63,753 nucleotides of DNA, filler included, from Vannella sp. (GCA_023345925.1; 4 parts of 4 records of this genome joined end to end with filler, not necessarily neighbours in it), one strand, 5' to 3'. Positions 5,179 to 63,402 are shown, counted from the whole stretch's first letter. Notes: generated by a model not told the origin, from the sequence alone. A program made the numbers and translations.

Positions 5179-7189
5179 ATGGCCTTGCCTCAATACTCAG
5201 GGGCTGTGTGGAGCGGGGCATCGTTGTTGATGGCGGGAGTGGTTTGGTGGTGTTTGAAGTTCACCAGAGTTCGTCAATGCTCACCATTGCACACCACGGG
5301 GTCTGCAGTACGACAGCAGGTGATCTTCAGCGCCATGAGTGCGGTGTCCTGGTTTTGCCACCGCGCTTTCCTTCGGGATGCAAAGCGAGCCAAAGAGGTT
5401 CAGGGTGGGACCTTTCCTTCATCAGAGGTCGCTCTCTCACACTCTAGGTAGACGAGGTCTTGCTAAAGATCCTTAAAGACAATCAGGATACCCCCTACGG
5501 CAAAAGTTGGCGTTTTGGAGAGATCAATAGCCGGGAGGCCTTCCAACAGCTCCACCCTCTGACCACTTACGAGCACTACCAGTCTTACATCGAGGAGATT
5601 CAGGAGCAGGGTGACCTAAACGTGCTGACAACGTGTAAGAATGCACTTCAGAGTCTGCTTTTGGACTCGCCCTGATGACTGGGTAGATCCTTTGGTCCAG
5701 TTAGCGATGACTTCAGGTACTAGTGGATCGCGGAAGCTGCTCCCTTTTACAAAGAAGCAGCGAACTGTCTTCTTCTTGCAAGGCATCGCTGTTATTTACC
5801 GCCAGTTACTCAGAATTGCAGGAACATCCCTTCAGAAGTCATGCAAGTTCATGTACACTCCCAAGAAAAGAACGGCACCTTCTGGGGTTATGGTGAGTGC
5901 CAACCCTTGAAGAACGAGAAAGAATGAGGTCTCATGCCATCTCAGATTGGTCCCAATTCATCTTCTCCTGAAGACAGCAAGTCAATGATGTGCATGTTCA
6001 CTACTCCTTTGGAGGGCTACATGGAGATCAGCAACGAAAGGGCAGCACTTTATGTGCATTTACTCTTTGCCTTGAAGGATCATAACCTGGGACAGTTCGA
6101 AGCCAATTTTGTTTCCCTCATTTACCATGCTTTCCGCTTCTTACAAGTTCACTGGAGGACGATGAGTGATGACATCCGACATGGAAAAGTCAATTCGGCT
6201 TTTGAGATGGCCTCGACCACAAGGAAAAGTTTGGAGCGGTCACTTCAAGGTCCTGATCCAGCACGCGCTGATTGGATCGATCGGGAGTTTGCATTGGGAG
6301 TTGAGGGCATTGCCACTCGCTTGTGGCCAAACCTCCGATGTATATTGAGCTGCAATACCGGCCCCTTCCAGCTCTATGATGAGAAGCTTTCCACTTTCAT
6401 CCCCAAAAGTGTACCACGTTATTCACCTCTCTATGCTGCTTCGGAGGGCTTACTTGGTATCAATCTGGAGGAAAATGGATCAAATTACATCATGCCACCA
6501 CGAGCAATGTTCTTGGAGTTCATTCCTGTGCTCAGCGATGACGAGGGTGAGCCAGAGAAAGTTCTCTTTGCGGACCAGATTGAGATTGGAGGAGTATACG
6601 AGCTTGTCATTACCAATATGTCAGGACTCATTCGGTACCGCATGGGAGACGTCCTCAAACTTGTTGGTCGCTACCACAACGCTCCAATTATTGAGTTTCA
6701 ATACCGCAAAGTGAGCCTTCTTTTCCTCATAGCGGACATGCTAATCATCATCAGGGTCAATTGATCAATTTGCGAGGAGAAAAAACTTCTGAAAAAAGCT
6801 TTTCAGAAGCAATACGTCTCGTACAATGGCCAGCTCCGGTGTTTGAATTCACTTCCGTAGATCCTGCTCTATTACAAGGCGACTTTGGAGAAATGCCCCG
6901 CTATCACATCTTTGTGGAGTTCGTTGATGAACCTTCCTCTTCTCTCGCAGACGGAGAGATGTTGGCCAGCAGCTTTGATGCAAATCTTTCCCAACTCAGC
7001 CCTGTTTACCAATCCTTCCGCGAGAAGGGAAGCATCGAACCGCCGATGATTCACATTGTTAGGAAGGGCACTTTCGAGCAGATTCGCCAACACATAATTG
7101 AAAGTGGCACTGGTGCCACTCAGGTGAAGATCCCGCGGGTGGTGAGAGTTCTGGAGCACATAACCTTCCTGCAAGATGGAAGGCTTTGA
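5179..7189 (+). CDS. GH3-family acyl-adenylating protein (GHDC-like), multi-exon
   Basis: LLKILKDNQDTPYGK, HPLTTYEHY, MTSGTSG, YAASEG, YELVITNMSGLIRYRMGD, NLRGEKT, QVKIPRV. Hydrophobic N-terminal segment. Confidence 0.88.
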
Positions 7190-16701: not shown

Positions 16702-16773
16702 TGAGCCCAGAGAGATTCGAACTCCCAACCTTTCGCTCTGGAGGCGAACGCGCTACCGTTGCGCCATAGGCCC
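16702..16773 (-). tRNA. tRNA-Trp(CCA)
   Basis: GGGCCTATGGCGCAACGGTAGCGCGTTCGC-CTCCAGA-GCGAAAGGTTGGGAGTTCGAATCTCTCTGGGCTCA folds as a cloverleaf with a GTTCGAAT T-loop and a downstream T6 terminator. Confidence 0.96.
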
Positions 16774-21194: not shown

Positions 21195-22463
21195 CTAGAA
21201 CTCAAAGAGAGCTTCTTCTGCCTCTGAGCGAGGCTTTCCGGAAGTCCTTCTTGAAAAGGAGGATTTGATACGACTCCAGAGACTGTCAGAGTCATTAAAG
21301 GACTCGGGTAAGTGGAATCCCCCACGCAAGTGAGAGACTGTGGCAATCAACAAAGCCAGAACGACTAATCCAAACAGAACCGGAATGACTACGGAGAAGG
21401 CAATAACACTGCGGTCGTGACGGCGCTTGGCGATGTAGGAATCTTGGATATCCTGAGCCGCCCGATAAACTGTGCTGCACCCATCACAAGGGACTGCAGG
21501 ATAAGGAGGAGGGTTCTTTGCATCATAATACACTAACCCAGACCCCACAGATGGTTTGACAAAAGTAAACAAAGCAGCAACATAGGCGGGACCTCTGGGT
21601 GCACTCGGATCTGTTGACACATAAAGAAGAGGCGGTTGATGCGTGTTATCCACTGCCACACCCTCAGGATTCTCCATGGGAAGGTCCCAATAGTCATAAA
21701 CGATCGTGCCGGCAATGTTAATCAAATAGAGCCGTTCACTTTGGTCCGAAACCACCCAAAGTCGGTCCAATGTCTCGTCATAGTCCAACCCGCTGATGTC
21801 TCCCGAGTAATCGGGGTAGACCACATCAATGATGGCCCCGTCTGGTTTGATGGTGTAGAAGACACGCGGGTGCTTCTCGTTGGCGACGTAAAGGAGATTG
21901 CGGGAAGTATCGACCGCCATTGCTTCCAGGCCCGAGCGTGCATCCCCCACCTCACGTTCTACGGAGAAGCGACTGACTTCAATCAATCTCGGATGCTTGC
22001 CCTCTCGCTCCTCCCAGTCCCCTGGTCGTATTGGCAATCGGTACGAGTGGATTTCGTGTCGCGCCTCTTCAGCGACGTAGAAGAGCTTGTTCACTACATC
22101 ACAGGCTACTGTCTCGATATCGCTTAACGTAGTGGCAAACTGAAACTGCTGGATCTACAAAGGAGCCCGCACAGGTGAGAACAGAAGGTCCTTTGGAATG
22201 AAGAGCGAGTTCCCATCAAGCAAACGCACCAGATTGCCCGCTCGATCAACCTCGTAGATGTACTGGCATTGAGGCGTGTCACAGATCATGTAGAGATGCT
22301 CCGTGATGTTGCAAAAGGTCAATCCAGAGGGCTGAGATACAAATCTGCCGACCAACACGGCCTGGATAGGCTGCAGAGGCTGAATCTTCGTTGTAATGGC
22401 CAATCCCAACGTTGCCATCCCCACTACGAACAACCACAACACCCAGCAAGGTTGCCCCCGCAT
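21195..22463 (-). CDS. SdiA-regulated/YjiK-like beta-propeller, type I membrane protein (one intron)
   Basis: Signal peptide; repeats QPSGLTF, GLEAMAVD..LYVANEKHP, DISGLDYD..LWVVSDQS, NPEGVAVD; C-terminal TM segment VIAFSVVIPVLFGLVVLALLIA. Confidence 0.72.
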
Positions 22464-32131: not shown

Positions 32132-33946
32132 CTATTTTCGTTTCTCGACTGGAAGAGAGAAAGGAATCACAGGGAGGCCGTGACTGCTGTATAGAATAGG
32201 CTTGGGCCAGCTGCACCACCCAAACTGGATGAACGCTATTTCCTGTTGTTTCCCTTCGCTAGATTCCAGAGAAGTTCTGGGGAAAGACAATCGGATGACG
32301 TTGGGTTCGACTCGCTTCAAGTCCTCCAGTTGAATGAGAGCACCGGTATCGAGTTTCGCCTCAAACCCGACACAATACTCTTCCATTGGTGCCCACGATA
32401 ACAGAAGCTGATTCACCGTGGGACACTGATAGCTCCGAATCTCCAGGCCCCCTTTCCCACATCGTTCTCTCTCGAAGATAACGTCAATTTGAATCAACTC
32501 ACTCAGATACTCCACCTGAACCCGCTCCACGGTGGGACCATACGATTGAATGGGAGAGTGGAAGATCTCTTCAAGAAGTCGCCAGGATATCCTCTCGCCA
32601 ATAGGCTTCTTGTCTCGCGGATGCAGGTCATCAAAAGGGCTGCTTGCATCGCCCTTGTCATACGCAGGAATCAGATGAACGTGAGGTACCCTTGTGAGAT
32701 TCATTTGAACTGCACGAAAGTTCTCTAATTGCGGATGACGGAGAAAAATCGGTGCCAAACCGACAACTACAAATGGAAGATTTGGCTGTCCGGATAACTT
32801 TCGCCAAACCTCCACGACAAACGGAAACGCACACGCGTAGAATTCCGGCGCAATAACATTCGACTCTCCCTGATACCAAAGAACCGCCCTTGTCTTGATT
32901 CGAGCCACTGGTTGGGCCATGCCAAACCATGAGAGACTGTTGTCGGTGGGACAGCACGGGTTTGAAGACACTTTTGACTCTCCACAAGCTTCAAAGACCA
33001 ACGGGTGGCTCCATGCTTGAAGAGGTGACCCATCAGCAGCCATCGTTATCAATCCAATTGGTACTTTCAACTCTTCATGCATCGCCCGCCCAAAGAACCA
33101 GCAAACGGCACTGACTTGAGAGTATGGCCGCAGCACATCTCGAACCGTACTGTTGGTAGATAGTGTCCATGGCATAGCAGGAGGGTTCTCCATTTCAGGA
33201 ATCTCTTCTTTGGAGTCCTTTCGCCCCACATCCATCACGCGGATCAGAGGAAAGTCAAATAGTTCGCCTTCCCTCTCATTTTCTCGTCCTATGAAGGTCT
33301 GGGCAACGGTAAACAACATGTTTGACTGTCCAGCGCAATGATATACATCTCCAAAGTACACGTCCTCTACTGTCAGACCTTCTCCTTGAGAGTTGAAGAT
33401 CCACAAAGTGATTGGTCCTCCCGCTTGTTGAAGAGGAAGCTCAATGGACCACCGCATTTGTGGTAATTTGGAAGGATATACTATTTCAGAGCTCTCTAGT
33501 GTGGCAAGGAGGGAGATCTTCTCATATTCAAGGAGAACTTCGCAGTCTTGGTCGTTGGCATCGCACCAACCCCAAACCAACGCCCGCTCAGGTGCTCGTT
33601 GCAAGACCATGTGGTCATTGAATACGTAGGCCAACCTAAACTTTCCTTCTCGATGCAACTCGCGCCCAAAGACGTCAGGACGACTGAAAGGTGGCTCCTC
33701 CAGCTCGGGACCGACGGGGGCAATCTCCAGAAACACTGCTTCCTTGACCGGCATTACTTCTCCAGGTGTAAACGCCAAAAAGAACATCAAACATAGGACT
33801 ACCAACCCTCCCACCGCTGCCATCTTCCTTCTGACGGAAGAACGCGGCCTTCTTGTCCCTCTCATCCATAAATGCCAGATTTCCCTTTTATGCCAGTTCA
33901 TTGCCGTCCATAATGGCTTGGAAAGGAAGGTACCCCTCCTCTCCAC
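32132..33946 (-). CDS. SIAE: Sialate O-acetylesterase (SIAE/SASA family), type II membrane; start codon uncertain
   Basis: FNDHMVLQRAP..VWGW, FGDVYHCAGQSNM, SAVCWFFG, VLWYQGESN, DLHPRDKKPIGER. Confidence 0.88.
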   Translation of the reverse strand: MERRGTFLSKPLWTAMNWHKREIWHLWMRGTRRPRSSVRRKMAAVGGLVVLCLMFFLAFTPGEVMPVKEAVFLEIAPVGPELEEPPFSRPDVFGRELHREGKFRLAYVFNDHMVLQRAPERALVWGWCDANDQDCEVLLEYEKISLLATLESSEIVYPSKLPQMRWSIELPLQQAGGPITLWIFNSQGEGLTVEDVYFGDVYHCAGQSNMLFTVAQTFIGRENEREGELFDFPLIRVMDVGRKDSKEEIPEMENPPAMPWTLSTNSTVRDVLRPYSQVSAVCWFFGRAMHEELKVPIGLITMAADGSPLQAWSHPLVFEACGESKVSSNPCCPTDNSLSWFGMAQPVARIKTRAVLWYQGESNVIAPEFYACAFPFVVEVWRKLSGQPNLPFVVVGLAPIFLRHPQLENFRAVQMNLTRVPHVHLIPAYDKGDASSPFDDLHPRDKKPIGERISWRLLEEIFHSPIQSYGPTVERVQVEYLSELIQIDVIFERERCGKGGLEIRSYQCPTVNQLLLSWAPMEEYCVGFEAKLDTGALIQLEDLKRVEPNVIRLSFPRTSLESSEGKQQEIAFIQFGWCSWPKPILYSSHGLPVIPFSLPVEKRK

Positions 33947-34134: not shown

Positions 34135-34479
34135 TGATGCTAATGGCATCCCAGTTCGGCGAGGAAAGCCTCAAAGCTCTCCGTAAGTTTGCAAAGTCTC
34201 AGTACGAGCAAGGGCAGTACGAAGAGGCCGCTAAGAACTTGACAATCGCCATGAGTCTCTCATTGAATGAGGAGGGAGAAAGGTGAGCCCTTAGGAACTC
34301 CCCAAGAGCACGAAACTCACGTCCTCCGCAGAAACGAAGAGTATCTCTCCGCCTTGTGGGGGAGACTGGCTGCCAACATCCTGATTAAGGACTGGAGCGC
34401 TGCAGGAGCTGAGCGAGCTGATTGACCAAGCTGACCTTGATGAGCTGAGGGAGCTGATTGACCAAGCTCGTCCGAGTCG
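34135..34479 (+). pseudogene. eIF3 subunit e (Int6) fragment with one intron and a frameshifting 22-nt duplication
   Basis: LKALRKFAKSQYEQGQYEEAA...ER|NEEYLSALWGRLAANILIKDWSAA[22-nt insert 34411-34432]DLDELRELIDQ. Intron 34283-34331. No downstream PCI-domain exons. Confidence 0.7.
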
Positions 34480-35720
34480 GTGAGAGGGCTACTCTTCTCT
34501 CTTTTGGGCTTCTTTTCCTTCTTCTCTTTGGAGGAACCCGCGCGGGAGCTCTTGGACGACTTATGAGAGCGAGATTGGCGCACAGAAAAGTGAACGGGAG
34601 GTGCACCTTCCACATTGGCTCCCTTTGAGTCAATGAAAGTGACTACCATGTCGTATTTGCGGTCTTCTGTTTCCTTCAGCAGTGACACAAGCGGCAAATC
34701 GAGCTTCTTCTTGTACATGGCCATCGGCATGTAGATCATGGAAGTGCCTTGGACCACTCCCGCAGGAGTAAGACCGAATTTCTTCTTGATTCTGTCAAAG
34801 AACTGTCCCAAAGTCATGTCATCACCCCCTCGGATCTCCCACTGGTCCCACATAGTGACTGATAGCTTCTCTGTCAACTGACTGACTTGAGATGGGCCTG
34901 GTTCAACCATGGCATAGAGAGACAACCAGATTCAAAAAGGAGTTTTTGAAGCGTTCCAGTTGTAGTGGCCCCATTCTCATTCTCCAACATTCTGAGTTTG
35001 ATAAGCTCCAAAGTGACTAGTCCAGCCACTGCGGATGTGGTAGTGGCAATAGCAGGAGTGATGTTACCGGCAATCCGTTTGATTTCAATACGGGGCGCCT
35101 CTTTGATGGAGTAGCAACGAGCTCGGAGATTAGTGACGGCAGTAATCAAGTCAACATGGTGATTCGAGTCATCATCTTTCTCAAAGCCCAATGGCTGGAC
35201 CTTCAAGCCTGGTGCAACAAACGGAGAACTTTCTTGAGAAGTAATTGTGAGTCACTTTGCAACCCATCACCTTTGTCAGTTGGCTTCAGTGCCTTCTCGT
35301 CAGTTTCGATTTCGACATCCTCTCTCGGAATGAAGACGGGCACCTTCGTAGACATGCACATTTGAGTGAGTTCTTGTGCAGATGGTACTGGCCCTGCAAT
35401 GTTCCATATCTCTGCCCACAGTGTTGCTCAATTAGTGATAAGGGAGCTGTGAAGCGGGTCATTCCCATTGAAATAGAGAGCTGTGGGAGGGCATCGTGGA
35501 GCAGCCCAAAAAAAGGCTCCATCCGCTAAAGTGTGGTCCAGAGGGAACTTCTTCAGCAGTTGCAGTCATTGCGAAAGCTGTCTTCAAAGTAGATTCTTGC
35601 GAAAGAAGCGCAATCGGCAGCCTATTGGGCGACGACGAAGGAGCCAAGCAACATTGCCAAGGCAACGAGATCCCCAGATTGTTATTTCGTATTTTTGAGT
35701 GCTCGCGCTGGATTGGCTGG
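34480..35720 (-). pseudogene. UBA6-like ubiquitin-activating enzyme (E1), C-terminal fragment with multiple frameshifts and an in-frame TGA
   Basis: [99 protein letters not shown] at 35428-35430 and frame breaks near 35620, 35565, 35222, 34968 and 34926. Confidence 0.8.
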
Positions 35721-35779
35721 AAACAGACCAATCGGGAAGGGACAAACGAATCACCAAGAGGGGAAGTGATCATTTGGTC

Positions 35780-38608
35780 ATGTCCCGCTCTCAAGCGAGT
35801 CTCCAGCGTGTCCATCGTCCAAACTCTCAGGCTACTCCTAAGAGTGCCCCTGTCCGTGCGGTTCAATTGCAGAGGAATCCGATGAGCGTGTTCATCAGTG
35901 GTGAGGCGCCTGTGAGCCCTTTCTTGCTTCAGAATCCGCCAAGTGGGCTCATACGCCCTGCTGTTGTGTCTCAGTTGATCATTCAACTTGATAGGAAGCT
36001 CCCTCAAGGCAACATTGTGTGTCTGTCTGCCTCTCCTGGTTCTGGAGGTACGACCATTGGTCGGTGGGTCGTGTCTACCTTGAATGACAGAGGCTTCTTC
36101 GTGGTTGACCTCTCTCCAACCATGGGTGATGTCAACTATGATGATATCCGTCGATTCCTCCATCAAGCGAGCACAGAAGCTCGCCATCCCCTGTTCTTGT
36201 TGGATTTCGGACCTTTCGTGAATGCTGCTGTCGTCTCCGCCGTGGTCAAAGTGATTCTATCACTCTGTGAAAGTGCCTCTGTACTCACTATCACTCATAA
36301 CGATCAGCCTGCCCCCCAATGTGACCATCTGATTGAGTACCAACTCGATGCAGGAGGATTGAAGGCTCTTCAAGAGGCCTACGCTACCCGCGAGCTCGCC
36401 TGTGGTAGTGGGCTTCTAGACCATGAGTCATTGATGATGGATACCAAACGGTTCACCGAAAACGAGGCGCTTAAGAAGGAGTTCTGCACGAAGGACCAAC
36501 GTGACTTGCTCAAGGATGGTTACTGGCCCCAAGAGATCTTCTCAGCCATCCAATATGCTGACTTGGGATTGCAATTGCGTAGGAACTACACGGAGCTTCA
36601 TCACATGACTTGCAGAGGTCTTATCCTTTACTATTTTACTGATATGGAAGTTCAGGAGCGCAATCGCATGGTTGCCTTGACTGTGGCGCGCATGCAACAG
36701 GAGGAAGTACTATTGCTGCGAGCCTGTTTGTTTGTCGCAATGTTCGCTCCAACAGAGAGACTTTCGCTTTCTGTGGTCCAGTTCTTCCTTCCGTCTTGTG
36801 GGAGATCCGTGTTGAATCTTAGTTCTCATCTCCGTACGCTCATTTCAGTGACCGACGACGAGTATGTGTGTATTCCAGCACCCCACATTGCCTACGCACT
36901 GCTGGAACATCCTCTTTTGTTCGGTCAAGATAGATTCGGCTTGACCCAGACCATTGAGATGTTAATGTCCTGTGCTGAAGTGAATCTCCCGTGCAGGGAT
37001 GATCTTATTAATGTTTTCCTGAACTCTTTCTGCTTCTACGATCTGGCGCACCCCATCGAAGAAGCCACTCCTTCCCAGATTCCCGGTCAAATCTTTGATG
37101 TGTCCAAGACTATTTCGTTTTCCTTTCTTGCGCAGAAGTTTCTTGACTTTGAAGCAAACGTTGAGTATCTTAAGAGACTCACATTCATCTACAGTTCCCA
37201 TGGAGAGGCTCAAGTTAGTTTCAGTACATATTGTGCTAGAATGATTACTTCGAAAGTCAGTTCCCAAGAGACCGAGGCCGCGGCAAACGCTCTTTTTGAC
37301 AAAGCCTTTGAACTGCTTGAGAGTGTAGGGAGAGACAGCCACCACAAAATTCAAGAGCGTTACGGACTGATTGAGAAGCTCCGCCTTGAAAACTACCGGC
37401 GGCGCCACATGGCATCGAAGAAGCTGGACCTTGCTTCTTTCCACAAGCATGAGAAGGTGATCTTCGCCATTCAAGAGCGCGCAATTGGATTTTTCGAGAG
37501 ATCCATGACCTTTCCAGAGCAGAATCTGTCCGTCCCGATGATTGGAGAGATGCTTTCGATGATGATGTACATCATGTCATTCCAGGAGCACCGCTGCAAC
37601 CGGAAATGCGAGGGAATGCTCGTGATTACTGGGAACACCGAAAGTGACGACAACAAGGTGCGCAAAGTCATTCAGGGAATGCTACGAAAGCTCTCTCTTC
37701 TCTATGCACAGTGCCAACATTTCTTGAGAACCAATTCCCGCCAATTCAGCTCGATCTCCATCAGGCGCAAGAAGATATCCCAAGAGAAGCTAGCGGGAAT
37801 CAAGATGCAGCTGAACCACATTCTTCGTCCCTCCAAATCTGGTTCACTTGCTCTCTGCAAGATATTCCTTGCCGATGGTCCTCCAAAAGATTTGCTCCAG
37901 GACCTCATTCAGGTGGCTGAGAGTATGAAGTCTGAGTCTCTCACGCAGAGAGAACGCCAATTCACTTTTGCAGAGATTATAAGGCTTGGTGTTGCTTCTT
38001 CTGAGCTTACTAACGTTCAACAAAAGCTTGCTGAGTTGATGGACCAAAAGCATTCCAATCGATTGATTTGGGAGCTTCCGCCACAACTCTTTTGGGAGGA
38101 TCCTAGAGCACTGGAGGATCTCTCTGCCTTGATTTGTGAGCAAAGCGATTGTCATTCCCTCTTCCGCGTTCATTTAGCTCCCGTGATGATCGCCATTTGG
38201 AAATGTATTCAGAATGCCTCTGCAAACGCCTCGGACCAGCTCTACGAAGCCCTCGAGCAAATGCAGGAATTCAACGTTAAGTTTCCAAGAGAGTTCTACC
38301 CAGAGAGATTCTTGGTAAGCAGTGCGCAGTCCATTCCAGGCTTCCCCTTTTCTGGTTTCCGACCGTTCCCAAATCTTCCCCCAAATAACCGGGAAGTCCG
38401 CCTCGCAATTATGAATGAGTTCTACAACTTCAGCGGTGAAGTAGCCAACCAGCAAGTGTTCTGTTCTGAACTTAACCTTCTGCTCCCCTGCCAACTGTAC
38501 CCCTCCGACATTCCCATCGGTAGCCCGGTTCGCTTCAAGATAATGCTGAACCGAACCGGACTGCGTTGCACCGGAATTCACGAGGAAATAGACGTATCTC
38601 GTATTTAG
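35780..38608 (+). CDS. SAMD9/SAMD9L-family STAND NTPase-TPR-OB fold protein lacking the N-terminal effector (intronless; alternative start 35882)
   Basis: Lys-less Walker A SPGSGGTTIG (36035-36055), PLFLLD Walker B, winged-helix-like FAPTERLSLSVVQFFL...VCIPAPHIA..LL, TPR-like CARM...KIQERYGLIEKLRL...ERAIGFFERS..NLSVPMIGEM, terminal OB-like FSGEV...VRFKIMLNRTGLRCTGI. Confidence 0.78.
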   Translation: MSRSQASLQRVHRPNSQATPKSAPVRAVQLQRNPMSVFISGEAPVSPFLLQNPPSGLIRPAVVSQLIIQLDRKLPQGNIVCLSASPGSGGTTIGRWVVSTLNDRGFFVVDLSPTMGDVNYDDIRRFLHQASTEARHPLFLLDFGPFVNAAVVSAVVKVILSLCESASVLTITHNDQPAPQCDHLIEYQLDAGGLKALQEAYATRELACGSGLLDHESLMMDTKRFTENEALKKEFCTKDQRDLLKDGYWPQEIFSAIQYADLGLQLRRNYTELHHMTCRGLILYYFTDMEVQERNRMVALTVARMQQEEVLLLRACLFVAMFAPTERLSLSVVQFFLPSCGRSVLNLSSHLRTLISVTDDEYVCIPAPHIAYALLEHPLLFGQDRFGLTQTIEMLMSCAEVNLPCRDDLINVFLNSFCFYDLAHPIEEATPSQIPGQIFDVSKTISFSFLAQKFLDFEANVEYLKRLTFIYSSHGEAQVSFSTYCARMITSKVSSQETEAAANALFDKAFELLESVGRDSHHKIQERYGLIEKLRLENYRRRHMASKKLDLASFHKHEKVIFAIQERAIGFFERSMTFPEQNLSVPMIGEMLSMMMYIMSFQEHRCNRKCEGMLVITGNTESDDNKVRKVIQGMLRKLSLLYAQCQHFLRTNSRQFSSISIRRKKISQEKLAGIKMQLNHILRPSKSGSLALCKIFLADGPPKDLLQDLIQVAESMKSESLTQRERQFTFAEIIRLGVASSELTNVQQKLAELMDQKHSNRLIWELPPQLFWEDPRALEDLSALICEQSDCHSLFRVHLAPVMIAIWKCIQNASANASDQLYEALEQMQEFNVKFPREFYPERFLVSSAQSIPGFPFSGFRPFPNLPPNNREVRLAIMNEFYNFSGEVANQQVFCSELNLLLPCQLYPSDIPIGSPVRFKIMLNRTGLRCTGIHEEIDVSRI

Positions 38609-38651: not shown

Positions 38652-41600
38652 CTACTTTTTGGAATTGCCAGAGAATCTCTTCTTCTTCCGCTTCTTGATG
38701 CTGTTCTCTTGAACGGTCTTCATGACTGGTAGATTGTCAGTTAGAATGGATTCTCCGTCCCTGATTGTCCCACTCACTTGTTTGCTCCATTTCACTGTCA
38801 TTCAGTAGCAGCGAAACGACTTCGGAGTTGTTGTTGAAAGCTCCTGCTTCGAACTTGCCACCAGCAATCACGATTGATTGGATCTGCGAGTGGTTAGTGT
38901 TTGAAGCAAGGTAGATCGGTTCTGTCTTGACTACTAACATTGTGCTTCTCCTTGGCTCTGGCCAGAATGCGCTCTTCAATCGAATTTTCTGTAACCAAGC
39001 GATAGACAGTAACGGGGCGTGTTTGGCCAAGCCGATGGGCTCGGTCCATTGCTTGAGCATCCATTGTAGGGTTCCAGTCCGAGTCATAGAAGATGACCGT
39101 ATCAGCGGCGGTAAGATTAATACCGAGTCCTCCTGCACGTGTACTAAGCAGGAACGCAAAAATCTTGTTGTTTTGGAACTCAGAAACCATATCTCGTCTC
39201 TCAGAAAGCTTGCTGGCTCCATCCAGTCGGTGATAAGAGTACTTGCGGTAGTTCATGTACTCCTCCAAAAGGTCCAACATCTTGGTCATTTGAGAGTAGA
39301 TCAATACGTTGTGGCCGCCCGCCTTCAGTTGGCAAAGCATTTGATCCAACTGCTTCAGTTTGCCTGAATCGTTGATGACTGAAGCAAAGTCTGGTACTCG
39401 AATCCGGTTGGGAGAAACGTACTTGAAGAGAGGTGGAAGCAGCCCCTGTTCAGGTAATTCCTTCCACGGGTGAGTCCTGGGAACAATCGCCGGGTTCGTA
39501 AAGCTGCAGTGATAGTTAGCACCATAGAGAAGCTTTTGCTGATATCCACTGAACATGACTTGATGTGTCTGCACCACAAACTGTCTATCAGAGCAAACAG
39601 GGACGATGGGAGCGGCAGCAGCAGCAGGCGAGTAGCCTCGAACGCTGCGGACAACTGGAGGAAGAGATGGACTCATTCCCCCGCACCTCCAAAGCGGCCC
39701 ATCAGCGGGAAGCTGGCGCAATTGGACGGCTTCTCGGATGAGGAAGGGAGCGTTCGGTACTTGACTTGGAAAATCATTGATAACAACCTGCCCTTGCCAT
39801 CTCTCGCGTTGGTGAGAATAGAACAGGTTTTGATCAAGCTGCGATGAATTGAAAGCGAAAGAAGCTTCTCCAGCAGATAAGTCAGCAAACCGAGTAAAGG
39901 AGAATGCAGAGTGAAGAGAAAGAGTCTCTCCATCAGTCATGGCATCACTATTAGCATAGTCACAAAGGCTCTCCGTAATATGCTTTACCGAGAAAAGAGT
40001 GAATCGGCGCAAGAGCGATGGAGACAAGTCTCTTCCTTGAATATCTCTGTGGCGAGTAGATGCCCAATCAGCACGATAGAAGGCCTTGGGATAGCGGTAG
40101 ATAATTGGATTGTTGTTGACTGTTTCCACAGGGTCAATAAATTGGAATGGAGAGGTTACTCCTCGACGCTCGAAAAGTTCCGGGTGATTGCAGACCTTTC
40201 GGAACTGCATGACAAGATTCATCAGATGAGCAGAATGGTCCGTGTTGTTAGATTGTGAAAGCAAATCTGCAATGGAGATGTTCGCTTTGATGCCTTTGTA
40301 CAAACGCTTTTGCCGCTCTGTCAAGATACAACGCTGCTCGTACTCGGTCTTGGTGACCATCTCATCCTCAATGTCTTGCTTGACTCGTCGCAACATGAAT
40401 GGCTTGAGAATGGTGTGAAGTCGTGATAACTGCTGCTCACTTATCTGGCCAGAACCCTCTGCGTGGTTCTCAACGTCTTTTGAGAACCAATCGTTGAACT
40501 CTTCGTGGGAGTCGAAGAAGGAAGGCATTATGAAATGAAGGAGAGCCCACAACTCAGCCATGTTGTTCTGGATGGGGGTTCCAGTCAAAAGCAATCGATT
40601 GCGACAGTTGAATCCCAAAAGGGTCTTCCAACGGACACTTGAGGATGATTTGAGCGCATGAGCCTCATCTAAAGCCATGTACTGCCACTTGACACGGCGG
40701 AAGTATGCTTCATCTTGCACGATAATCTGGTAGCTAGTCACTACGACGTGCATGGAAGCATCTCGTGTGTACATGCTCTTTGGAGTCCAGAAGTGGCGGA
40801 GGATCTTTCTATCCTCAACTGTCCCCCAGTAGGGCCGAGCCTTTAGCGTTGGAGTAAAGCGAGCAAATTCTTGCATCCAGTTGTGCAGCGTTGAGACAGG
40901 AGAGATGACCAAGAAAGGGCCCCAAATGTCCTTCTCCTCTGCCAAGTGAGCCAGAAAGGCGATGGTTTGGATGGTTTTACCCAGGCCCATGTCATCAGCT
41001 AGGATTCCATTGATACCTTGATCGTAGAGGTTGACCATCCAATTCAATCCGCGCAATTGGTAGTTCTTCAGCTTCCCTGCAAAGAGTGAGGGCTGAGAAA
41101 TCATAAGCTCACCCTCTCCTAGAGGTGCAGAGGGCTTGGGCGCTTCAATAGAAGGCATTGCGTTAGCAGGAGCTACATCAATACCAAGTTTCCGCTTGCG
41201 AATTCGCGTTTCCTCATCGAAAGCTTCCATTCTCTCGCGCGTCTCTCGTAGCTTATCTTCTGCCGCCTTGGTAGCTTCCGCAGCCAACTCAGCATCTTCT
41301 GGCATCTCCGGCATGGGAATGCTCGTGCCGCTTTGGACTGTGGCGATTCCCTCGCCATCATCTCCTCCCAATTTGTCAATTCCAACCTTACTACCGATAA
41401 AGTGAGCGTAAAGCTCGGTCTGGGTGAGCAAGAAGTTCAGCTTCTTCTGCTGGCGTTTTGCCTCGCGGACTTCGTCGTCTCGCTTCCTCAATTGGGAAGC
41501 TGTTTTGACCGCTTTGCGAGCCTGTCCTCGTTGGTTCTTCTCATGTTTGCGCCAATACATAAGAACCTCCTTGGAAAGCTTCTTGCCGCGGTTGCCACCA

Positions 41601-42655
41601 TCTTTACCGACTCGTACGGAGCGGAGAATCCGTTTTTTGACCTCTTTTTGGCAAGCAATAGCCACCTTCTTGGCTAGTCCAATCAGATACGTGCGGTTGT
41701 TGACCAGTACGCGATGCTGCTTCAAGATATCAGCCTTGGAAAGGTGCGTCCACCTCGCTTGGCTCGATGGCGCCATCCGAGACAAGAACTCCCCAGATTT
41801 GCCTCCCAAGCCACGGGTAGATCGCAATCCGTACTCGACATCATACACGCGAGCCTTCTTTCGCTCAGGAGCAAGGATCTCGTGATAAGGCGCAACGAAC
41901 AAAAAGTCATCTTGGAAGAGGCCATCCGGGTTGATGTGTTCATCACAGGAGCTCTTCTCTGTGTTACGTGCACCAATCGGGAAGATGAACTCACTGGGGT
42001 CGATGCGGAGCCGCTTGCGAGGAAGCGCTTGGCGTCCAGCAAGGTGGCGCCGATTCACGAACGATTCTGAGTCCAAAGAGCCCGAGATCTCACCCTCTGG
42101 GTCTCCATCAGTATCCAGAGTTGAGTCTTGATCCTTCTCATGGGAGTCGAGCCTTGTCGGATGGTCCTGATCCCCTGAGCGGACCAAAGAGGCCCATCTT
42201 CGTTCTTTGTAAGCTTGGGAGCGAAGGAACAGAGGCGTAGCATCAGAGGTTTCCTCATATGTCGGTTGTACGCAGCACTCAAGCTCTAATCGGTCGATCT
42301 GAGCTTTGGCGTGCGACAACACGGCGAGGTCAAAGTGGGAGCTGGGATCCTCCGTTTCATTTAACTTGGAGTACCACCTGCTCATCCCATCACTGTGAGT
42401 CTCGAGACGGTTTCCAAGGAGAGAAGGGAGCGACAACGTACTCGCTTTGGAAGTGTTCTGAGTCGAACTGAAAGGACGTGGAAAATGGGTAAAAGGTGAG
42501 TTGTAAGACACCCTAGAACCCCTGAAAGGCACTCTCAGGGGTAGAAGGAGACTTACCTTGGCAGCGTCATCATTCTTGGGTAACGAGTGAGGAGGGAGAG
42601 GGACAAGTGGTGAGTCCTTTCCGGTGGGAACAGCCCCGTTCTCTGCAGGCTTCAT
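38652..42655 (-). CDS. INO80: Chromatin-remodelling ATPase INO80 (multi-exon)
   Basis: DBINO segment EAKRQQKKLNFLLTQTELYAHF, LYDQGINGILADDMGLGKT, LDEAHALKSSSSVRWKTLL, FSKDVENHAE, LLSTRAGGLGINLTAAD, QAMDRAHRLGQ. Confidence 0.95.
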
Positions 42656-42941: not shown

Positions 42942-44847
42942 ATGATGCCAGAAAGTGATCTTCCAACAATCGGTCCCTTTCAGTTTTTGTCGGCTCGCAT
43001 GGTGGAACCTCTTCCAAGTTTGGAGTCTTTTCGTGTGGCTCTGAAGAAGATCTCTCCACGTCAGCGGGTGAGGGTGCTACTGAAGGGAATAGCTCCCTTC
43101 TGACAAAGACCCAGTCACTCCCAAGCACTATCTGCTCAGACGAGATCGATTACCATTCCTCAGGGTTGATAGATACAGGGAACTTTGGGTCAGTGTACTA
43201 CGGCAAAGTGAGAGAGCTTCCAGCGGCTATCAAGGTGTTGAAGAATGCCACGATGACTACAAAAGCCATCGAGTCCTTCCAACGTGAGGTAGAGATAGTG
43301 AAGTACGCACTCTCTTCATTGAAGCCTCTCTCCTAACTCCCTTAAGGAAAAACTCTCACCCCAACATCGTCCAGTACTTGGGAGTATGCGCAGAACCAGA
43401 TAAGTTTGTGATTGTGATGGAGTTCATTCCTGGTGGGAACTTGGACAACCTTCTGCATGACACCAGACGCAACATATCTCTGTACCACCTGCTACGCATC
43501 GCAAAGGAGGTTGCCCTTGGCATGAACTGGCTCCACAACGCCAAGCCCCCAATCATCCACAGAGATCTGAAGCTCACCAACGTCCTATTAGACGCCAATC
43601 TTACCGCAAAGATATGCGACTTTGGGCTGTCACAAGAGAAGTACTCTCCCTTCCTTCGTGATCCATCAACTGGAGCCAAAGGCACCCCATTGTGGATGGC
43701 TCCTGAAGTCCTTCGTCTGGAGCCCTTCAACGAGAAGTGTGACATATACAGGTGAGTAAGTCACCGTTTGTAAGCATCTAACTGATTGCTGCAAGCTTGG
43801 GAGTCTTGTTCTGGTGCTTAGTCACGCGGATGGAACCGTATGATCAGTTCACGGAGTTTGATCCCTTCTTCCGCGCAGTCTGCTATGAAAACATACGACC
43901 CATCATCCCAGCCAACACCCTTCCGAGTCTGGCAGATCTCATCTCCACTTGCTGGCATTCAGATCCAAAGAAGCGACCGACTTGTGCCCAGATTGTCCAC
44001 AGCCTTCAGCATATCATGATAGAGGAGGCTGTCACTGACGAAGAAGGGCGACAGCTTTGGAAGGACAACTGCCTGGACCGCCAAAGTATCTATTGGGATG
44101 ACTTTATCGATATTTTTGAGGAGCCTTTTGTCTATTTGCCAGACCAAGCCTCACTCAAAGAGCTTGGTGCAGCTCAGGAGTTCCAGTTGAGTGAGTACAG
44201 CTCAAGGGATCTCGAGAAGGCTGCTGCAGTGTCCAACGAATGGATTCGAAGGACAGGGATGCCCACGGCGCCTGACAACATTGCTGAGTTGGAAGCAGCA
44301 TATGAAGTGAAGGTGAAGTGTTTGAAGTCTCTCCTTGTGTCCAAGGGTCCTGGTGACCTCGATATGGTCGAATTGGAGAAGTTTGGGGATGTTCTCAAAT
44401 GGTTTGGCCCCATTCGGGACCCTGATGGCTCAGTCAACATCATAGAACGTGTATGTGGAGACTTTCATCAATCCATCATCTTACCTGTTCCCGTAGATCG
44501 CTGAAATCCTTGGCAATGAAGCCTTCCATGGAGACATCAGTGCTTCACGAGCTCAGGAGCTTCTCCTGGCATACAAAGAGGCCGGCACGTATTTGGTGCG
44601 CTTTAGTTCTGTCCATGGCCAGTACGCAATCACTCACATTAGCGAAAACGGAGCTATCAACCACAACCGCATTTCCCACAAACTGGGAGAAGGCTTCCTC
44701 TTCCGCAACCAATACTTCCCCACCATTGCAGGCTTAATCGAAGCCATCTCTCCCGTTCTCAAACTCACCAAAGCCTGCCCTGGTTCAAAGTACCAAAGTA
44801 TCTTCCAAAATATCGGCACAGATTATCAGTACAAGAACTGCCTGTAA
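42942..44847 (+). CDS. Shk-type TKL kinase with C-terminal SH2 domain (multi-exon)
   Basis: GNFGSVYYG, HRDLK, DFG, KGTPLWMAPE, FGDVLKWFGP, SH2 FHGDIS...GTYLVRFSS..YAIT..NHNRI, CPGSKYQSIF. Confidence 0.9.
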
Positions 44848-63316: not shown

Positions 63317-63331
63317 GGCGAAAAAAGAATG

Positions 63332-63402
63332 TGCATCAGCCGGGAATCGAACCCGGGTCCAACGCTTGGAAGGCGTCGATGCTGCCACTATACCACTGAT
63401 GC
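63332..63402 (-). tRNA. tRNA-Gly(TCC)
   Basis: GCATCAGTGGTATAGTGGCAGCATCGACGC-CTTCCAA-GCGTTGGACCCGGGTTCGATTCCCGGCTGATGCA folds as a cloverleaf; T6 terminator at 63321-63326. Confidence 0.96.

What the first reader, a model, noticed from the sequence alone, without database searches (positions are those of the whole stretch)
35780..38608. SAMD9-family antiviral STAND sensor (NTPase-TPR-OB) in a protist
Seen: an intact, intronless ORF of about 940 aa with a Lys-less Walker A (LSASPGSGGTTIGRWV), preceded by VFISGEAP...LIRPAVVSQL. It is followed by PLFLLD, a helical FAPTERLSLSVVQFFL..RTLI..VCIPAPHIA..LLE region, TPR-like helices (KIQERYGLIEKLRL; ERAIGFFERS; NLSVPMIGEM) and a terminal beta domain (FSGEV..VRFKIMLNRTGLRCTGI). 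Known: mammalian SAMD9/9L have HPGCGGTTLA, ISLSQCEKFL..VRIIHSLIA, ISDTLGQVYKSKIR, AEHASSAFKES, NIAGYQGEI and a terminal OB fold (VSFYLGFSIGGPLAYDI) in the same order (recalled from memory). They are virus-sensing translation inhibitors, and the family is described mainly from animals and bacteria (Avs-like defence). Inference: this is a protist member and a candidate innate immune sensor, for example against giant viruses of amoebae.
Basis: partly seen in the sequence, partly recalled or inferred. Interest (0 to 1): 0.92.

Follow-up and report, generated by a model that had tools for sequence, protein, structure and literature searches.

The report
Headless SAMD9-like protein in an amoeba
An amoeba, likely a Vannella relative, carries an intact reading frame for the core of the human antiviral protein SAMD9, a family reported absent from protozoa, but this copy lacks the enzyme head and key switch residues, so it would likely act as a sensor or decoy partner rather than block translation itself.

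Summary
The 942-aa ORF is real and homologous to the SAMD9/Avs9 NTPase-TPR-OB core. A profile built only from it and its nearest hits finds human SAMD9 alone in the PDB (E 7.6e-7) and matches bacterial SAMD9-like cores at 99.5%. The neighbouring INO80 groups with Vannella robusta. A 2025 survey found no such proteins in protozoa (PMC12680541).

It has no tRNase, SIR2-like or other head, and five nucleotide-switch residues are replaced. Upstream lies a decayed ubiquitin-E1 fragment. Its only relatives among 1.84 billion proteins are three unnamed 1400-2200-aa lineages that keep a SIR2-like domain and an unproven HEPN-like head. Together they form a clade on the animal side of the tree.

Best reading: a headless member of a new eukaryotic SAMD9-like clade, likely a non-catalytic sensor or decoy; a young truncated remnant is the main rival. 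Antiviral function and expression are untested. The scan had not found this family before; it noted different Schlafen-NB-ARC proteins in metamonads.

The parts
35780..38608 (+). ORF of 942 aa (P0001): headless SAMD9/Avs9-like STAND core. The frame is open from 35699; a second ATG at 35882 lies just before the conserved core.
35861..36007 (+). Residues 28-76: counterpart of the SAMD9 lineage insert (SAMD9 667-704) and first NOD helix. F38, G41 and R59 kept; the R685 position is S40.
   Evidence: domain name from PMC13600222 passages
36008..36394 (+). Residues 77-205: nucleotide-binding domain. Lys-less P-loop PGSGGTT (86-92), Ala84 at the H737 position, one Walker B acid (D142), no Arg at or near sensor-1.
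36677..37114 (+). Residues 300-445: winged-helix and HD2-like region. The R982 position is C364 and the H985 position is A367; H369 lies two residues on.
37115..38281 (+). Residues 446-834: helical TPR1/TPR2-like arm (R487, G529, F572 kept). Residues 600-780 give no significant profile match.
38282..38587 (+). Residues 835-936: predicted five-stranded beta barrel in register with the family's terminal OB fold.
34500..35667 (-). Decayed, 5'-truncated fragment of a ubiquitin-activating E1 gene (SCCH and UFD domains) with frameshifts and a premature stop, head to head with the ORF, where the effector head would be encoded. A second E1 copy about 91% identical in the same runs parts from it at 35667.
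38894..42655 (-). INO80 ATPase gene, convergent neighbour used to place the host (62% identical to Vannella robusta INO80 over 1167 columns).

Best explanation
This is a headless member of a previously unreported eukaryotic clade of SAMD9-like STAND proteins, in a likely vannellid amoeba, and it likely works as a non-catalytic sensor or decoy partner rather than as a self-contained translation blocker. Shown: it holds only the NOD-TPR-OB core, and the residues that couple ATP to the switch in SAMD9 are replaced, while the P-loop backbone, the Mg-binding Thr and one Walker B acid remain. Shown: its nearest relatives carry a SIR2-like domain and a further N-terminal head. Inferred: the head was lost in a rearrangement that left a decaying E1 fragment upstream, and the core has since been kept by selection. 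Inferred mechanism: the TPR arm and OB fold would bind a viral or self ligand, and the protein would act in trans on a full-length, nuclease-headed paralog, either promoting its opening through the OB/SIR2 contact that SAMD9 needs for activation, or soaking up viral antagonists. No such paralog has been seen in this genome, which was not available.
For: Homology: seed-free profile of P0001 plus five relatives hits only six human SAMD9 sequences below E 0.3 among 177,635 PDB sequences (E 7.6e-7 to 2e-6); that profile against 27 bacterial cores gives 99.5%, E 3e-22; the WHD/TPR part alone, free of the Walker A motif, gives 95.5%, E 1.6e-8; the C-terminal 780-942 gives 63.8%, E 6.7e-5, 15 controls at most 0.7%; even the single-sequence model had SAMD9 as top Foldseek hit (E 8.2e-4). 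Headless: model 28-936 aligns to SAMD9 671-1589; 66 of 69 locus-derived homologs have 330 or more open residues before the P-loop, against 84 here. Switch: 0 of 5 residues kept, whereas 74 of 76 homologs keep 3 or more. Kept by selection: 969 open codons next to an E1 fragment with frameshifts and a stop; all 11 listed indels in public contigs lie upstream, none in the ORF; the 3 listed substitutions in the ORF are all synonymous (chance about 0.04). OB/SIR2 and SIR2/SIR2 contacts are required for SAMD9 activation (PMC13600222 passages).
Against: No whole genome was held, so a full-length partner is unseen, and no divergent contig of 80% identity or more was listed on the ORF. At least 2 more differences in the ORF (X3 records 21 and 22) were not displayed, so 3 of at least 5 were classed, and coverage is patchy and low. 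The protein is very divergent: it keeps 23 of 44 conserved columns against 9-19 for 21 shuffled controls, so loss of five residues may partly be general drift. The WHD His is missing in all three related lineages too, so that loss is not special to this copy. The Walker A His was selected for in 69 of the 76 homologs by my search pattern. The second model was built on a family alignment, so its SAMD9 match (E 1.4e-13, TM 0.49) is partly circular. No immune context: neighbours are housekeeping genes.
Confidence: 0.45

Rival explanations
1. Young 5'-truncated remnant: a recent deletion or rearrangement joined an already decayed E1 fragment to the middle of a full-length SAMD9-like gene, and the core has not yet had time to break.
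For: The open frame starts only 32 bases from the E1 breakpoint (35699 against 35667). All three related lineages are 470 or more residues longer at the N-terminus. The whole upstream 1.5 kb is a patchwork of gene fragments. It alone has lost the Walker A His and has no sensor-1 Arg.
Against: Similarity of the 27 pre-ATG codons to the relatives is not significant (best p 0.20 in 2000 shuffles). The ORF starts close to a domain boundary. No indel is listed in the ORF and the 3 listed substitutions are synonymous. The switch residues differ although the frame is unbroken, which suggests change while still coding.
Confidence: 0.25
2. The gene model is incomplete: the real protein has a head encoded by upstream exons beyond the contig end or hidden by a misjoin, and works as a complete SAMD9-like sensor-effector.
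For: In-phase AG sites exist at 35806, 35830 and 35872. The contig begins only 1.6 kb upstream. No listed contig bridges 35667 with 31 bases on both sides; X4 record 25 has only about 14 on the left.
Against: Introns seen in this window are about 45-50 bases. No trace of the relatives' head domains lies in the window (tblastn). A contig from a second study matches 35654-35804 without a difference. The switch residues would still be missing.
Confidence: 0.15
3. The core has been repurposed for a non-immune job, for example as an RNA- or protein-binding scaffold.
For: No effector, degenerate switch, housekeeping neighbourhood.
Against: The clade is very patchy: only 3 hits at E up to 0.001 among 1.84 billion representatives, none close, although a Vannella robusta protein set is in the collection. 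Such fast divergence fits conflict genes better than housekeeping genes (inference).
Confidence: 0.12
4. The gene is unrelated to SAMD9, or does not belong to the amoeba.
For: No Pfam, PADLOC or NCBIfam family hit, no single-sequence PDB hit, identity to family members 12-18%.
Against: for homology; for linkage to INO80 and host-like codon use.
Confidence: 0.03

Closest known systems
Human SAMD9/SAMD9L (PDB 9ZJR, 9ZJS, 9ZJV; SAM-tRNase-SIR2-Delta-NOD-TPR1-TPR2-OB)
   Same: Colinear lineage insert, NOD with Lys-less GGT P-loop, TPR arm and terminal OB barrel, matching residues about 671-1589.
   Different: No SAM, tRNase, SIR2-like or Delta domain. Positions R685, H737, R837, R982, H985 and D800 are replaced; in SAMD9, R837A abolishes activity and R982C and H985A cause gain of function (PMC13600222 passages). 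Host is an amoeba.
Bacterial Avs9 (AlbA_2-SIR2-STAND-TPR-OB) and Avs6 (PNP head; Labedella endophytica, locus L027)
   Same: Same core; profile match 95.5-99.5%. These also swap heads: AlbA_2, PNP and TCAD9 were seen.
   Different: They keep the P-loop His, sensor-1 Arg and WHD His and carry a head. In the three cases of 69 with a short leader, an in-frame ORF lies one stop codon upstream (AlbA_2 twice, TCAD9 once). P0001 falls outside the bacterial group in the later trees.
Animal-type SAMD9-like proteins with a DZIP3-like HEPN head (metagenome loci L190, L205; animal origin inferred)
   Same: Sister group of the new clade (98 SH-aLRT). L190 has a Pfam HEPN_DZIP3 domain upstream (E 5e-7), and the new clade's long members have a similar Arg-x4-His motif.
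   Different: They keep the His-containing P-loop. The HEPN call for the new clade's head is not statistically supported.
Avs5 (SIR2-STAND; PDB 9JAP, 9NC9)
   Same: Related STAND and TPR sensor; Foldseek E 5e-5 to 7e-5. Its sensor clusters with SAMD9 (PMC13581612 passage).
   Different: Much weaker match than SAMD9 (E 1e-13), and it has a SIR2 effector head.

Membership tests
SAMD9/Avs9-like STAND core | Significant profile homology of the NOD to SAMD9 and bacterial SAMD9-like proteins | tested here: met
   (residues 1-300: 84.6%, E 6.8e-6)
SAMD9/Avs9-like STAND core | Lys-less Walker A (GGT/S) | tested here: met
   PGSGGTT at 86-92 in the family's invariant columns; feature from PMC5445408
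SAMD9/Avs9-like STAND core | Upstream P-loop His (H737) that replaces the Lys | tested here: not met
   Ala84; His in 76 of 76 homologs (69 selected for it) and in 3 of 3 nearest lineages
SAMD9/Avs9-like STAND core | Sensor-1 Arg (R837) and WHD His (H985) | tested here: not met
   H173, with no Arg in residues 156-195, and A367; each residue kept in 71 of 76 homologs. H369 might stand in for the WHD His.
SAMD9/Avs9-like STAND core | TPR arm after the NOD | tested here: met
   (349-582, 95.5%); residues 600-780 alone not significant
SAMD9/Avs9-like STAND core | C-terminal OB fold | tested here: met
   clade profile 835-942 against family E 7.3e-4 and 780-942 E 6.7e-5, controls E 0.075 or worse; five strands in the model (alignment-guided); the single sequence alone is not significant
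SAMD9/SAMD9L and Avs9 proper | AlbA_2/Schlafen tRNase effector domain | tested here: not met
   Only 84 residues precede the P-loop; no AlbA_2 hit
SAMD9/SAMD9L and Avs9 proper | SIR2-like and Delta domains before the NOD | tested here: not met
   Absent in P0001; present in its relatives (78.7%, E 1.7e-5, reversed 2.4%)
SAMD9/SAMD9L and Avs9 proper | Infection-triggered translation shut-off or cell death | not testable with these tools
   needs experiments
HEPN RNase (head of relatives P0129-P0134) | HEPN fold with Arg-x4-His motif | tested here: inconclusive
   Motif aligned in 3 of 3 lineages and in register with 28 Swt1-type HEPNs, but 1.3% probability against controls up to 5.5%; the same test also missed a Pfam-confirmed HEPN (0.3%); no Pfam or PDB hit. 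The motif's meaning is recalled.

The most novel reading that the evidence does not exclude
Amoebae harbour their own clade of SAMD9-like immune proteins, with zinc-finger and HEPN-type RNase heads in full-length members and headless partner forms like this one. The clade shares ancestry with animal SAMD9, so the SAMD9 core predates animals and amoebae use a sensor-helper SAMD9 pair against giant viruses.
Probability: 0.3. Interest if true: 0.9.

Novelty: new variant of a known kind. Interest (0 to 1): 0.7.

Why it matters
PMC12680541 reports no SAMD9/Avs9-like hits in protozoa, algae, fungi or plants, and PMC5445408 suggests that animals may have gained the gene from bacteria. A SAMD9-like core linked to amoebal genes, in a clade that sits on the animal side of the tree, reopens the origin of this antiviral and disease gene family. 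It also hands over concrete candidates: three long relatives with a possible RNase head and one headless form, which can be tested for cell-autonomous immunity in amoebae, the hosts of giant viruses. The natural replacement of R982 by Cys and H985 by Ala mirrors human gain-of-function changes and gives a natural test of the SAMD9 switch. If this copy is only a remnant, the clade and its presence in an amoeba still stand.

Tried and rejected
Single-sequence searches found nothing: Pfam (only AAA, E 0.083), PADLOC, NCBIfam, PDB sequences, word-based search of 5.8 billion proteins (0 of 7491 candidates), metagenome contigs (0 of 29 stretches). The single-sequence AlphaFold model was poor (pLDDT 35.6) and its VIA re-alignment gave only generic helical matches. 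No relative was confirmed in IMG/VR for A1, P0131 or P0129, in plasmids with an Avs6 query, or for the clade profile in 201 genomes of one bacterial phylum (0 of 201, with no positive control); the viral fold library gave only generic ATPases. The Atlas search on residues 690-942 gave only a 0.85 lead. Counting conserved columns is a weak test (23 of 44 against 9-19). Trees without the three relatives did not place P0001 (branch 3.1-3.4; AU p 0.72 for a eukaryote grouping). An apparent likeness of the pre-ATG codons to P0131 was rejected (p 0.20). The HEPN test was inconclusive. No repeat or transposon ends of note around the gene. No whole genome was held. Literature searches for SAMD9 with amoeba, Amoebozoa, protist, unicellular eukaryotes and HEPN (listings only, plus passages of PMC13712778) showed no report of a protist member; supplements were not read and subscription papers are not covered.

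Full report
Observation. The window is four contigs joined by N spacers; the finding lies on the contig 34135-58674. Codon use matches the host genes in this frame only. Eight public runs hold part of the stretch, three of them half or more, all from one study. Of four runs laid, contigs match the ORF almost exactly and one bridges its 3' end to INO80; the best holders may be the source of the assembly.

Host. The contig carries INO80, a kinase with a C-terminal SH2 domain, SRAP, CDP-diacylglycerol synthase and Uso1 genes with short introns. Kinase-SH2 fusions of this type are typical of Amoebozoa (recalled). In a quick tree of 31 INO80 rows (30 picked from 120 listed hits) the window's protein forms a 100% clade with two environmental proteins, lies with Balamuthia (89) and outside animals and fungi (98) and plants. 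The cluster of its nearest row holds Vannella robusta INO80, which is 62% identical over 1167 columns. The host is therefore likely a vannellid amoeba.

Homology. Standard libraries are blank. ESM Atlas features gave 0.96 to an unnamed mostly chordate cluster, a SAMD9-like cluster and an nSTAND5 cluster, and a poor single-sequence model still had human SAMD9 as its only Foldseek hit under E 0.001. I gathered bacterial members by a P-loop DNA pattern (120 loci, 28 kept), among them Labedella Avs6; a profile of 27 of them hits human SAMD9 at E 7e-42. Against it, P0001 residues 349-582, which do not include the selected motif, score 95.5%, E 1.6e-8. With 76 members (69 from loci, 7 fish) the match runs from residue 36 to 938 (92.9%, E 3.6e-7; reversed 0.5%), while the plain HMM margin is modest (15.7 bits against at most 6.8 for 600 shuffles). 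An alignment-guided model (pLDDT 71.3, pTM 0.73) matches SAMD9 at E 1.4e-13, TM 0.49 and Z 15.1, rmsd 7.6, 673 aligned, residues 28-936 on 671-1589; this is partly circular. The independent test is: a profile made only of P0001 and five relatives found from it hits six SAMD9 sequences (E 7.6e-7 to 2e-6) and nothing else below E 0.3. It matches the bacterial profile at 99.5%, and its C-terminal part matches the family's OB region above controls.

What is missing. The protein begins at the SAMD9 lineage insert, so SAM, tRNase, SIR2-like and Delta domains are absent (domain names from passages of PMC13600222). Of 69 locus-derived homologs, 66 have 330 or more open residues before the P-loop, and the other three have an in-frame AlbA_2 or TCAD9 ORF one stop codon upstream. 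SAMD9 numbering was mapped by my hand count on the alignment. Positions R685, H737, R837, R982 and H985 are S40, A84, H173, C364 and A367; 74 of 76 homologs keep at least three of the five, though the His was selected for in 69. The P-loop backbone, T91/T92 and one Walker B acid remain. In SAMD9, R837A abolishes activity and R982C and H985A release autoinhibition. Against over-reading this, P0001 is highly divergent overall, and its relatives also lack the WHD His while keeping the P-loop His.

Relatives. A full phmmer scan of 1.84 billion representatives gave three hits (E 1.4e-8, 1.5e-5, 1.1e-4), with longer cluster members of 1987 and 2189 aa. All are unnamed metagenome proteins and their hosts are unknown. 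They align with P0001 end to end and add a SIR2-like and Delta region (78.7%, E 1.7e-5), a zinc-motif domain ending in Arg-x4-His that resembles HEPN RNases but fails to reach significance, and in two lineages Cys/His-rich fingers that look like B-boxes (recalled). In quick trees of 37 and 26 rows (33 and 22 of the 76 family rows), the four form a clade (100 and 99), sister to two animal-type metagenome proteins (98), and these with fish SAMD9L stand apart from the bacterial rows (98 under LG+G4, 96 under a mixture model). The trees are unrooted, long branches meet, animal sampling is thin, and trees without the relatives were unresolved; they give no direction of transfer.

Upstream. Where the head would lie there is a head-to-head fragment of a ubiquitin E1 gene split over three frames with a premature stop. 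A second E1 copy about 91% identical in the same runs restores the frames and parts from the window at 35667, 32 bases before the open frame starts. All 11 listed indels lie in this upstream part and none in the ORF; the three listed substitutions in the ORF are synonymous, but at least two more were not displayed. The pre-ATG codons show no significant likeness to the relatives, and no piece of their head is found in the window. A complete list of variants and a contig bridging the junction remain open.

Mechanism. Shown: a headless NOD-TPR-OB core with an altered switch. Inferred: it cannot cut RNA itself. Since SAMD9 activation needs OB/SIR2 and SIR2/SIR2 contacts, the most likely remaining immune role is in trans on a full-length paralog, or as a decoy for viral antagonists (0.45). 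A young remnant (0.25), an incomplete gene model (0.15) and a non-immune role (0.12) are the rivals. Two earlier scan notes, on a split bacterial SAMD9-like pair and on a degenerate diplomonad Schlafen-NB-ARC protein, suggested the partner idea; they are unchecked and are no support.

Novelty. PMC12680541 (passages) states that no significant hits were found in algae or protozoa, even with relaxed searches. PMC5445408 (first two of four parts of the text) lists animals and bacteria only. PMC13581612 (passages) speaks of an animal family. Five targeted searches showed no protist member (listings only); supplements were not read. The protein is not a SAMD9 or Avs9 proper, since the effector and SIR2 tests fail, but it belongs to their core family. 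I rate it a new variant of a known kind, interest 0.7: the phylogenetic extension is solid, the function of this copy is open.

Noticed in passing
window 34136-34470 (+): A second gene fragment at the contig start, with a 49-base intron and a 36-base tandem duplication; it resembles eIF3e by recall only (Pfam gave just TPR_3, E 0.0087). With the E1 piece it makes a 1.5-kb patchwork of gene fragments that varies among contigs.
   Followed up: partly
P0129-P0134 (unnamed ENA and Logan proteins): Full-length members of the new clade, 1400-2200 aa, with zinc fingers, a HEPN-like motif, SIR2-like, STAND, TPR and OB regions; better test subjects than the window's copy.
   Followed up: partly
L205:141-5405: Intronless 1755-aa animal-type SAMD9-like protein with a HEPN-like region and two N-terminal segments that look like LOTUS domains (recalled, no Pfam hit).
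   Followed up: no
L133:362-4102, L143:678-4364, L020:1808-6541: Bacterial-type SAMD9-like genes split from an in-frame AlbA_2 or TCAD9 head by a single stop codon; natural splits, read-through or errors.
   Followed up: no
window 42959-44847 (+): Tyrosine-kinase-like kinase with a C-terminal SH2 domain, of the amoebozoan Shk type by recall.
   Followed up: partly
window 5928-6764 (+), 21195-22154 (-), 32132-33901 (-): GH3-family, SdiA-regulated-domain and sialate O-acetylesterase genes; possible bacterial-type genes in the amoeba.
   Followed up: no
window 16702-16773 (-), 63331-63402 (-): tRNA-Trp(CCA) and tRNA-Gly(TCC) genes.
   Followed up: no
P0009 and P0012: A bird and a Brassica INO80 score far above their kin against the amoebal query but sit with birds and plants in the tree; likely scoring artefacts or chimeric records.
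   Followed up: partly
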